64,000 nucleotides of DNA from Escherichia coli (GTDB lineage: Bacteria > Pseudomonadota > Gammaproteobacteria > Enterobacterales > Enterobacteriaceae): the NCBI RefSeq assembly GCF_003018115.1, contig NZ_CP027457.1; one strand, written 5' to 3'. The translations under genes were made by a program, and so were the position numbers. Shown in pieces: positions 19,491 to 19,529 of the stretch (position 1 is the stretch's first letter; every line of letters starts with the position of its first letter). Under the pieces are notes generated by a model. That model had not been told where the DNA came from, ran no database searches, and was given only the letters and a program-made list of their open reading frames with translations.

Positions 19491-19529
19491 CCCTGCTAAT
19501 TTTGCTAATGGTTAGCAAAATTAGCAGGG
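19491..19529. repeat. Perfect 18-bp inverted repeat with 3-nt spacer (CCCTGCTAATTTTGCTAA tgg TTAGCAAAATTAGCAGGG)
   Basis: Read directly; lies ~40 nt downstream of the stop of the 620-aa minus-strand ORF; no U-tract follows on the minus strand, so it is not a canonical intrinsic terminator. Confidence 0.85.

What the first reader, a model, noticed from the sequence alone, without database searches (positions are those of the whole stretch)
19491..19529. Perfect 18-bp inverted repeat just downstream of the 620-aa ORF
CCCTGCTAATTTTGCTAA tgg TTAGCAAAATTAGCAGGG is a perfect 18-bp palindrome pair with a 3-nt spacer. No U-tract follows it on the minus strand, so it is not a canonical intrinsic terminator; a protein-binding operator or recombination site is an alternative.
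Basis: seen in the sequence. Interest (0 to 1): 0.4.

Follow-up and report, generated by a model that had tools for sequence, protein, structure and literature searches.

The report
Conserved palindromic iteron site, likely island origin
The 18-bp palindrome is real and is the E. coli version of a conserved DNA element, four short GCTA(C/A) repeats arranged as a mirror pair, that travels with the replication-type genes (AlpA, DUF3987 helicase, HUH-like YfjJ/Gp2) of a family of integrative islands. It is most likely a protein-bound DNA site such as the island's replication origin, not a transcription terminator.

Summary
Positions 19491-19508 and 19512-19529 form a perfect 18-bp inverted repeat with a 3-nt spacer, 39 nt after the stop of the 620-aa ORF. 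It is by far the longest hairpin-type repeat in the window and occurs once per genome.

It is not an isolated oddity. A second E. coli island type (about 77% identical) keeps the palindrome perfect through three double substitutions. Every distant homologue of the 620-aa gene examined (23-34% identity; Serratia, Providencia, Edwardsiella, Klebsiella, Salmonella and others) has a related palindrome just after its stop.

Each arm holds two 9-bp-spaced copies of (T/G)GCTA(C/A). The same array also occurs without the 620-aa gene, 3' of DUF3987 helicase or YfjJ/Gp2 genes, and beside a phage PrimPol-helicase gene inside a cluster of at least 11 iterons.

Four features point to DNA-level protein recognition rather than an RNA terminator:
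- the motif sequence is conserved;
- some copies are imperfect or asymmetric but keep the motifs;
- G-U pairs are almost absent;
- no U-tract is conserved.

Best reading (about 0.45): an initiator-binding site or origin of the island's replication module. Function is inferred, not shown. Nothing matching it turned up in Rfam or in the paper searches I ran.

The parts
19491..19529 (.). Perfect palindrome (PAL): 18-bp arms and a 3-nt spacer
   Evidence: As single-stranded DNA the hairpin folds at -18.6 kcal/mol, z = -9.6.
19494..19499 (+). Outer iteron TGCTAA, left arm
   Evidence: Aligned with the (T/G)GCTACA iterons of 26 related elements (A4).
19503..19508 (+). Inner iteron TGCTAA, left arm, 9 bp from the outer one
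   Evidence: The inner GCTA is invariant in 27 of 27 elements.
19512..19517 (-). Inner iteron, right arm (TTAGCA on the + strand)
19521..19526 (-). Outer iteron, right arm (TTAGCA on the + strand)
19509..19511 (.). Central spacer TGG. It is found flipped to CCA in another E. coli strain.
   Evidence: L006 against L002
19391..19490 (.). AT-rich flank on the side away from the 620-aa ORF: 74% A+T against 50% for the whole window
   Evidence: This is weak evidence because the whole 18-21.4 kb region is only 34-38% GC.
19569..21431 (-). 620-aa ORF (RefSeq start gives 611 aa), an orphan all-alpha TPR-like protein divergent from alpA. PAL follows its stop.
21505..21792 (+). AlpA-family HTH protein
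   Evidence: Pfam Phage_AlpA, E = 1.4e-17
21764..23293 (+). DUF3987 protein (SF6/MCM-like replicative helicase family) with the Walker A motif GSGKT intact
   Evidence: Pfam E = 7e-64; alignment A3; literature
23463..24680 (-). P4-type tyrosine integrase at the island end next to ycdU
17661..18254 (-). 'Inovirus-type Gp2' / YagK-YfjJ-like protein with an HUH-like motif (HIH) and a YLAK tyrosine motif; candidate nickase or initiator

Best explanation
PAL is a DNA-level cis-acting site of the integrative island, not an RNA signal. It is built from four copies of a 5-7-bp iteron: TGCTAA here, (T/G)GCTACA in relatives. There are two direct copies 9 bp apart in each arm, and the arms are inverted. 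A sequence-specific island-encoded protein binds these iterons. The best candidates are the C-terminal winged-helix domain of the DUF3987 replicative helicase or the HUH-type YfjJ/Gp2 protein. The site most likely serves as the origin, or initiator-loading site, of the island's replication module once the island is excised. The perfect dyad would allow symmetric (head-to-head) loading, or extrusion as a hairpin or cruciform. What is shown: the element exists, it is conserved, its motif architecture is as described, it is linked to AlpA-DUF3987-YfjJ modules, and its symmetry is of the DNA type. What is inferred: protein binding, the identity of the binder, and origin function.
For: (1) Symmetry is kept through double changes. 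The E. coli clpA-site island type has CTGCTATTGTTGCTAGC-CG-GCTAGCAACAATAGCAG, which differs from the window by three substitution pairs that are all complementary. By my own back-of-envelope estimate, the chance of that is about 1.5e-5.

(2) All 17 contigs that encode distant homologues of the 620-aa protein carry a related palindrome 10-134 nt after the stop.

(3) The sequence is conserved, not only the pairing. In 27 aligned elements the inner GCTA is invariant and the outer GC.A almost so; 14 of 21 pairs show double changes, and G-U cells are almost absent.

(4) Copies with broken symmetry keep the iterons. These are the second copy in L008, L031 with 2+3 motifs, L032 with 4+2 tandem 9-mers, and L043 and L045 with asymmetric 9- and 10-nt spacing.

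(5) A pattern scan of 100,044 species genomes found 15 loci. Eight have the 620-aa gene homologue directly upstream of the palindrome, and a ninth (L024) has the same flanks and a YfjJ fragment but runs out of sequence on the gene side. The element also occurs without that gene and next to replication genes: 236 nt after DUF3987 in Paraburkholderia, 127 nt after DUF3987 in Klebsiella, next to a DUF3987 fragment in Ottowia, and upstream of alpA-DUF3987 in Pseudomonas. It also lies directly 3' of an alpA-yfjI-gp2 operon in E. coli ET220 and, in a plasmid, 3' of a gp2 gene with an IS-truncated DUF3987 remnant.

(6) In a phage contig, a similar palindrome lies 46 nt after a PrimPol-AAA_25 replicase gene, within at least 11 TTGCTAC iterons.

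(7) DUF3987 proteins are SF6/MCM-like helicases with a C-terminal wHTH domain (PMC4889955), and one has been shown to be a 5'-3' helicase (PMC11724360). PICI origins are iteron arrays just 3' of rep (PMC6092414).

(8) The element is present once per island and once per genome.
Against: No experiment bears on this. In the window, PAL is 2.2 kb from the DUF3987 gene and directly follows a different gene, a position that also fits a 3'-end RNA hairpin. The AT-rich flank is not distinctive in a region that is AT-rich throughout. No DnaA or IHF sites lie nearby. The binder is unidentified. The DUF3987 C-terminal region shows no detectable homology to the C-terminus of the phage replicase that sits next to the same kind of iterons. 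YfjJ was not detected in two PAL-bearing islands. K-12 CP4-57 has alpA, yfjI and yfjJ but no such element. Known PICI origins have an AT-rich spacer between their iteron sets; here the two sets abut.
Confidence: 0.45

Rival explanations
1. RNA 3'-end element. The hairpin forms in the mRNA of the 620-aa gene and acts as a U-tract-poor terminator, an RNase III site, or a block to 3' exonucleases that stabilises the message and insulates the island core from the cargo.
For: It lies 10-134 nt after a stop codon in most loci. The RNA stem is very stable: the 161-nt region folds at -46 kcal/mol, z = -4.1. A lenient scan calls it terminator-like. C-run/G-run clamps at the stem base are common.
Against: Relatives have no conserved U-tract; tails such as AGGGGGCAUG and GCUCCUGAAU occur. 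The primary sequence (GCTAC) is conserved across 23-34%-identity homologues, which terminators do not show. G-U pairs are almost absent despite many double changes. Imperfect copies keep the motifs rather than the pairing. Extra tandem iterons lie outside the hairpin in L032 and L040. In Pseudomonas the element is upstream of alpA. The centre flips orientation between strains.
Confidence: 0.15
2. A protein-binding DNA site with a non-replicative role. Examples: a target of AlpA or another island regulator (roadblock, excision control, partition-like centromere), or a recombination hotspot that marks the boundary between core and cargo.
For: AlpA is detected in most PAL-bearing islands and is the best-conserved core protein, at 67-82% identity among the Enterobacterales loci. 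Homology between related islands can end exactly at PAL, as in L036 against L008. Variable defence cargo follows it.
Against: There is no second iteron cluster at the alpA, int or gp2 promoters. The spacing between arms varies from 3 to 6 nt, which is unusual for a dimeric operator. It is far from the att site, with no att-like repeat. No ParA- or ParB-like genes are present. No AlpA was detected near the phage copy.
Confidence: 0.2
3. A functionless, self-perpetuating palindrome. Replication template-switching between the arms (quasipalindrome correction) copies any mutation to the other arm, so perfection and 'compensatory' changes need no selection.
For: Only Watson-Crick double changes are seen. 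The symmetry extends into non-motif flanks, up to 25-bp arms in L013 and L034. The asymmetric centre flips repeatedly (TGG to CCA, GT to AC), a signature of hairpin-templated switching.
Against: This cannot explain why the GCTA(C/A) motif and its 9-bp spacing persist across Gamma- and Betaproteobacteria and a phage. It cannot explain why imperfect copies retain all four motifs, or why the element stays linked to replication-type genes in different gene orders. Template-switching probably operates here, but on a selected site.
Confidence: 0.05

Closest known systems
PICI / SaPI replication origins (iteron arrays 3' of pri-rep)
   Same: Integrative, AlpA-bearing islands with their own helicase or primase. 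Short iterons occur in two sets, once per element, and in several relatives lie immediately 3' of the replication genes (L031, L035, L045; PMC6092414).
   Different: PICI origins have two iteron sets flanking an AT-rich melting region. Here the two sets are inverted and abut (0-4 nt apart), forming a perfect palindrome. In the window the site follows the alpA-divergent 620-aa gene rather than rep. Replication of this island has not been tested.
SV40 core origin site II; papillomavirus E1 binding site (from my own knowledge)
   Same: Four short recognition motifs arranged as two inverted pairs inside a perfect palindrome. In those viruses this arrangement directs head-to-head loading of an initiator-helicase.
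   Different: Those helicases are SF3, whereas DUF3987 is SF6/MCM-like. The motif spacing is 9 bp here. Binding is unproven.
Filamentous-phage gpII origin and AAV ITR Rep-binding element (HUH initiators; from my own knowledge)
   Same: An HUH-type protein annotated 'inovirus-type Gp2' is encoded nearby. gpII binds a short palindrome with a 3-nt spacer next to its nick site. AAV Rep binds tandem short repeats in a hairpin stem.
   Different: No conserved nick sequence was found in the loop or flanks; the loop is variable and flips. YfjJ/Gp2 was not detected in two PAL-bearing islands. HUH activity is inferred from motifs only.
Rho-independent terminator
   Same: A stable stem-loop shortly after a stop codon.
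   Different: The stem is AT-rich (7 GC pairs of 18) and unusually long. There is no canonical or conserved U-tract. The primary sequence is conserved, and the covariation is of the DNA type.
REP / BIME-type extragenic palindromes
   Same: An intergenic palindrome after a gene.
   Different: It is present once per genome and tied to a single island family.

Membership tests
Intrinsic (Rho-independent) terminator | G+C-rich stem-loop at the 3' end of a transcription unit | tested here: inconclusive
   The stem lies 39 nt after the stop, but it is 18 bp long with only 7 G-C pairs.
Intrinsic (Rho-independent) terminator | Uninterrupted U-rich tract immediately 3' of the stem | tested here: not met
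   The tail in the window is GUAUUAUCUA. Orthologous elements mostly have non-U tails.
Iteron-type replication origin of a mobile element | Several copies of a short conserved repeat at fixed spacing | tested here: met
   Four copies with 9-bp spacing within each arm. Relatives have up to 6 (L032) or at least 11 (L040) copies.
Iteron-type replication origin of a mobile element | Linkage to the element's initiator or helicase gene | tested here: met
   A DUF3987 gene, or an IS-truncated or fragmentary remnant of one, lies within a few kb in nearly all loci whose flanks could be read. PAL is directly 3' of DUF3987, YfjJ or PrimPol genes in L031, L035, L043, L045 and L040. In the window it is 2.2 kb from the gene.
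Iteron-type replication origin of a mobile element | Adjacent A+T-rich unwinding region | tested here: inconclusive
   The flank is 74% A+T, but the whole region is AT-rich.
Iteron-type replication origin of a mobile element | Initiator binding, and origin-dependent autonomous replication | not testable with these tools
   This needs EMSA or footprinting and plasmid-maintenance assays.
HUH-Rep (rolling-circle or hairpin) origin | An HUH nuclease encoded by the element | tested here: inconclusive
HUH-Rep (rolling-circle or hairpin) origin | A conserved nick sequence in the loop or beside the hairpin | tested here: not met
   The centre is variable (CCA, TGG, CATG, GCGC, CCGG) and flips. No conserved flank motif is visible in A4.
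REP / MITE-like repeated palindromes | Many dispersed copies per genome | tested here: not met
   There is one locus per genome in 74 and 43 E. coli genomes.
Known RNA families (Rfam 15) | A match to a curated covariance model | tested here: not met
   The only hit is a chance-level match to mir-87, E = 0.99.
att / arm-type integrase sites | Proximity to the island ends, with direct repeats of the att core | tested here: not met
   PAL is about 5 kb from the int-proximal end. No att-like direct repeat was found.

The most novel reading that the evidence does not exclude
PAL is a hairpin- or cruciform-forming origin at which the HUH-type YfjJ/Gp2 protein binds the stem iterons and nicks. The separately encoded MCM-like DUF3987 helicase then drives rolling-circle or rolling-hairpin replication of an excised chromosomal island. 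That would be a bacterial two-protein counterpart of the parvovirus and CRESS-virus Rep (HUH plus helicase). It would also mean that many 'cryptic prophage' CP4-type islands are replication-competent elements.
Probability: 0.15. Interest if true: 0.8.

Novelty: new variant of a known kind. Interest (0 to 1): 0.5.

Why it matters
Islands built on int, alpA, DUF3987 and yfjJ are common in Enterobacterales. They carry anti-phage defence cargo and virulence genes; this window's island includes CdiBA and lactate-utilisation genes. Yet their core genes are part of the E. coli 'y-ome' and their life cycle is unknown. A conserved, single-copy cis element tied to the helicase/HUH module gives a concrete handle. 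It predicts where these islands start replication, or at least where a core protein binds. It makes replication competence directly testable with a small PAL-plus-genes construct, and it offers a sequence signature for finding such islands. It also has a practical consequence: perfect palindromes of this family break short-read assemblies at a predictable place. Seven Logan assembly contigs end inside the element.

Tried and rejected
- Rfam scan of 16-25.5 kb: nothing meaningful.
- Extra copies in the window, in plasmids, in phages and in IMG/VR using the E. coli-specific pattern: none.
- A multi-copy REP-like element: rejected, because there is one locus per genome.
- An att or arm site: no direct repeats link PAL to the int-proximal end of the island.
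- The 620-aa protein as the binder, or as a protelomerase-like enzyme acting on a perfect palindrome: no Pfam, PADLOC or NCBIfam hit, and the confident AF2 model is an all-alpha TPR-like solenoid with only weak RRNPP-type matches and no DNA-binding or recombinase fold.
- A second iteron cluster at promoters within the islands: none, except a second copy 308 nt downstream in L008.
- DnaA boxes and IHF sites within 300 nt either side: none that are consistent across loci.
- Homology between the DUF3987 C-terminal region and the C-terminus of the phage PrimPol-helicase, to identify a shared iteron-binding domain: none (hhalign probability 0.06%). PDB sequence searches were also uninformative.
- K-12 CP4-57 as a positive control for the element: it has only an 11-bp terminator-like hairpin after intA and no GCTAC array.
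- Literature search for the motif and for YfjJ or DUF3987 origins: no description found.

Full report
**Observation**

The window carries CCCTGCTAATTTTGCTAA-tgg-TTAGCAAAATTAGCAGGG at 19491-19529, a perfect 18-bp inverted repeat with a 3-nt spacer. The arm has no other match in the window at up to 3 mismatches; 0.04 are expected by chance. It is the longest perfect hairpin-type repeat in the 64 kb. The next longest has 10-bp arms, and 30 Markov-simulated windows reached at most 9-13 bp. It lies 39 nt after the TGA of the 620-aa ORF (19569-21431, minus strand). The tail on that strand, GUAUUAUCUA, has 5 U in 8 but no run. A lenient scan flags it as terminator-like, but it is not a canonical U-tract.

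**Context**

The window is the E. coli 2014C-4135 chromosome (100% match). PAL sits in a P4/CP4-type integrative island next to ycdU. Its genes are:
- integrase, 23463-24680 (-);
- DUF3987, 21764-23293 (+);
- AlpA, 21505-21792 (+);
- the divergent 620-aa ORF;
- a 1.3-kb gene-free AT-rich gap;
- an 'inovirus-type Gp2' (YagK/YfjJ-like) gene, 17661-18254 (-).

**Distribution within E. coli**

The 69-nt stretch around PAL occurs in 74 of 5426 complete genomes, at one locus each, and never on a plasmid. About 145 further genomes carry a version of the same module that is about 77% identical, at the clpA site. In that version the palindrome reads CTGCTATTGTTGCTAGC-CG-GCTAGCAACAATAGCAG. It differs from the window at three positions in each arm, and every change is matched by its complement, so the palindrome stays perfect. 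The surrounding non-coding DNA is only 42-68% identical. By my own estimate, six random substitutions would form three complementary pairs with a probability of about 1.5e-5. E2348/69-type islands extend the arms to 22 bp. One strain has the spacer flipped from TGG to CCA.

**Distant relatives**

An exhaustive protein search found only about 13 full-length homologues of the 620-aa protein, at 23-34% identity. All the contigs recovered (L007-L023) keep the same synteny: the gene is divergent from an alpA-DUF3987-YagK/YfjJ operon, with the integrase beyond and variable defence cargo downstream. Every one has a perfect or near-perfect palindrome 10-134 nt after the stop. Seven Logan contigs end inside it, which is what a de Bruijn assembler does at a perfect palindrome.

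The arms share a sequence. There are two copies of (T/G)GCTACA (TGCTAA in the window), 9 bp apart, followed by their mirror image. In an alignment of 27 elements the inner GCTA is invariant and the outer GC.A nearly so. The positions between and outside the motifs vary freely but symmetrically. Of 21 pairs, 14 show changes on both sides, 80 cells are double-changed, and G-U cells are almost absent. That is the signature of DNA symmetry, not of an RNA helix evolving through wobble intermediates.

The spacing within an arm is fixed at 9 bp. The gap between the inner motifs varies from 3 to 6 nt, and asymmetric centres flip between close relatives (GT to AC, TGG to CCA).

**The motif matters more than the hairpin**

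Several copies have lost perfect symmetry but kept the motifs:
- a second copy 308 nt downstream in L008;
- Paraburkholderia L031, with non-complementary spacers and a fifth motif;
- Providencia L032, with four tandem 9-mers facing two;
- the plasmid and E. coli ET220 copies, whose arms have 9- and 10-nt spacing.

**The element travels with replication-type genes**

A pattern scan of one genome per species returned 15 loci. Eight have the 620-aa gene homologue directly upstream of the palindrome, and a ninth (L024) has the same flanks and a YfjJ fragment but runs out of sequence on the gene side. In several loci, though, the element occurs without that gene:
- 236 nt after DUF3987 in Paraburkholderia;
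- 127 nt after DUF3987, between convergent alpA-like and DUF3987 genes, in Klebsiella spallanzanii;
- beside a DUF3987 fragment in Ottowia;
- about 170-220 nt upstream of alpA-DUF3987 in Pseudomonas.

In E. coli ET220 it closes an alpA-yfjI-gp2 operon. In plasmid pAR0468_1 it follows a gp2 gene whose upstream DUF3987 survives only as a C-terminal remnant cut by IS3. In E. coli KFu015 the gene order is the same as in the window, with a class-B palindrome 438 nt upstream of the Gp2-type gene.

In an unrelated phage contig, a similar palindrome lies 46 nt after a 713-aa PrimPol-AAA_25 replicase gene. There it sits within at least 11 TTGCTAC iterons in both orientations.

K-12 CP4-57, which has alpA, yfjI and yfjJ, lacks the element. 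It therefore marks a subfamily of these islands, not all of them.

**What the linked proteins are**

DUF3987 proteins have been classified as SF6/MCM-related replicative helicases with a C-terminal winged-helix domain (PMC4889955). A PriCT-DUF3987 protein has been shown to be a 5'-3' helicase (PMC11724360). The window's copy has an intact Walker A motif.

**Interpretation**

The best reading is a DNA-level, protein-recognised cis site of the island's replication module, most likely its origin or initiator-loading site (confidence 0.45). It resembles PICI and SaPI origins in being an iteron array tied to the island's helicase (PMC6092414). It differs in that the two iteron sets abut and form a perfect palindrome. 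From my own knowledge, that layout recalls the four-pentamer palindrome of the SV40 origin, the palindromic gpII-binding site of filamentous phage origins, and the repeat-bearing hairpin stem bound by AAV Rep.

Symmetry extends into non-motif positions, and the centres flip. Both suggest that hairpin-templated strand switching acts on the site, and possibly that extrusion as a hairpin or cruciform is part of how it works.

The rivals, with my confidence in each:
- An RNA 3'-end hairpin (0.15). It fits the position after a stop codon. It does not fit the motif conservation, the DNA-type covariation, the imperfect copies or the iterons outside the hairpin.
- A non-replicative protein site, such as an AlpA target or a core/cargo recombination boundary (0.2).
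- A functionless self-correcting palindrome (0.05).

**Limits**

All of the evidence is comparative. The binder is unidentified. No nick site, DnaA box or IHF site was found. The AT-rich flank is not distinctive. In the window, PAL is 2.2 kb from the helicase gene. Nothing matching it turned up in Rfam or in the paper searches I ran.

Noticed in passing
window 19569-21431 (-): The 620-aa ORF belongs to a very small orphan family of about 13 distant full-length homologues, always divergent from alpA in AlpA-DUF3987-YfjJ islands. Its AF2 model is confident (pLDDT 85.6): an all-alpha TPR-like solenoid with weak similarity to RRNPP sensors (NprR, Rap, AimR).
   Followed up: partly
window 17661-18254 (-); alignment A6: YagK/YfjJ / 'inovirus-type Gp2' proteins, which are E. 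coli y-ome genes, show conserved HUH-like (HYH or HIH) and YLAK..K motifs. This suggests an HUH nickase or initiator. I found no literature on their function.
   Followed up: partly
window 17711-18500: The Gp2-type gene and about 250 nt upstream of it are 92-100% identical between two E. coli island types whose other core genes are only about 78% identical. This suggests a mosaic or a recent exchange of this module.
   Followed up: no
window 18255-19568: A 1.3-kb gene-free stretch of 33-35% GC with a strong excess of A over T on the + strand. It is poorly conserved between island types. It contains a terminator-like hairpin at 18890-18921 (-) and an unsupported 51-aa ORF at 19206-19361 (+).
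   Followed up: no
L009, L010, L012, L014, L016, L017, L023 (contig ends): Seven Logan assembly contigs stop inside the palindrome, 48-158 nt after the gene. Perfect palindromes of this family systematically break de Bruijn assemblies at the core/cargo boundary.
   Followed up: partly
window 24680-25045: ARAGORN finds no tRNA anywhere in the window, although the integrase abuts ycdU, where I recall K-12 carrying serX. An RtT-like sRNA is annotated at the equivalent spot in another strain (L005). The attachment site of this island is therefore unclear.
   Followed up: no
L040 4921-5132 (IMG/VR phage contig): At least 11 TTGCTAC(A) iterons in both orientations span the 3' end of a PrimPol-AAA_25 replicase gene and the spacer before an Hjc-like resolvase gene. 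This looks like an origin and uses the same iteron core as the islands.
   Followed up: partly
L008 6837-6876 and 7147-7181: One island carries two copies of the element 308 nt apart, the second imperfect. This is reminiscent of the paired ori/crr sites of P4.
   Followed up: no
window 1-14000 (L001 annotation): Beyond the core, the island region carries cdiB and cdiA (contact-dependent inhibition), a lutABC-type lactate utilisation cluster with a permease, IS remnants and an SdiA-regulated domain gene.
   Followed up: no
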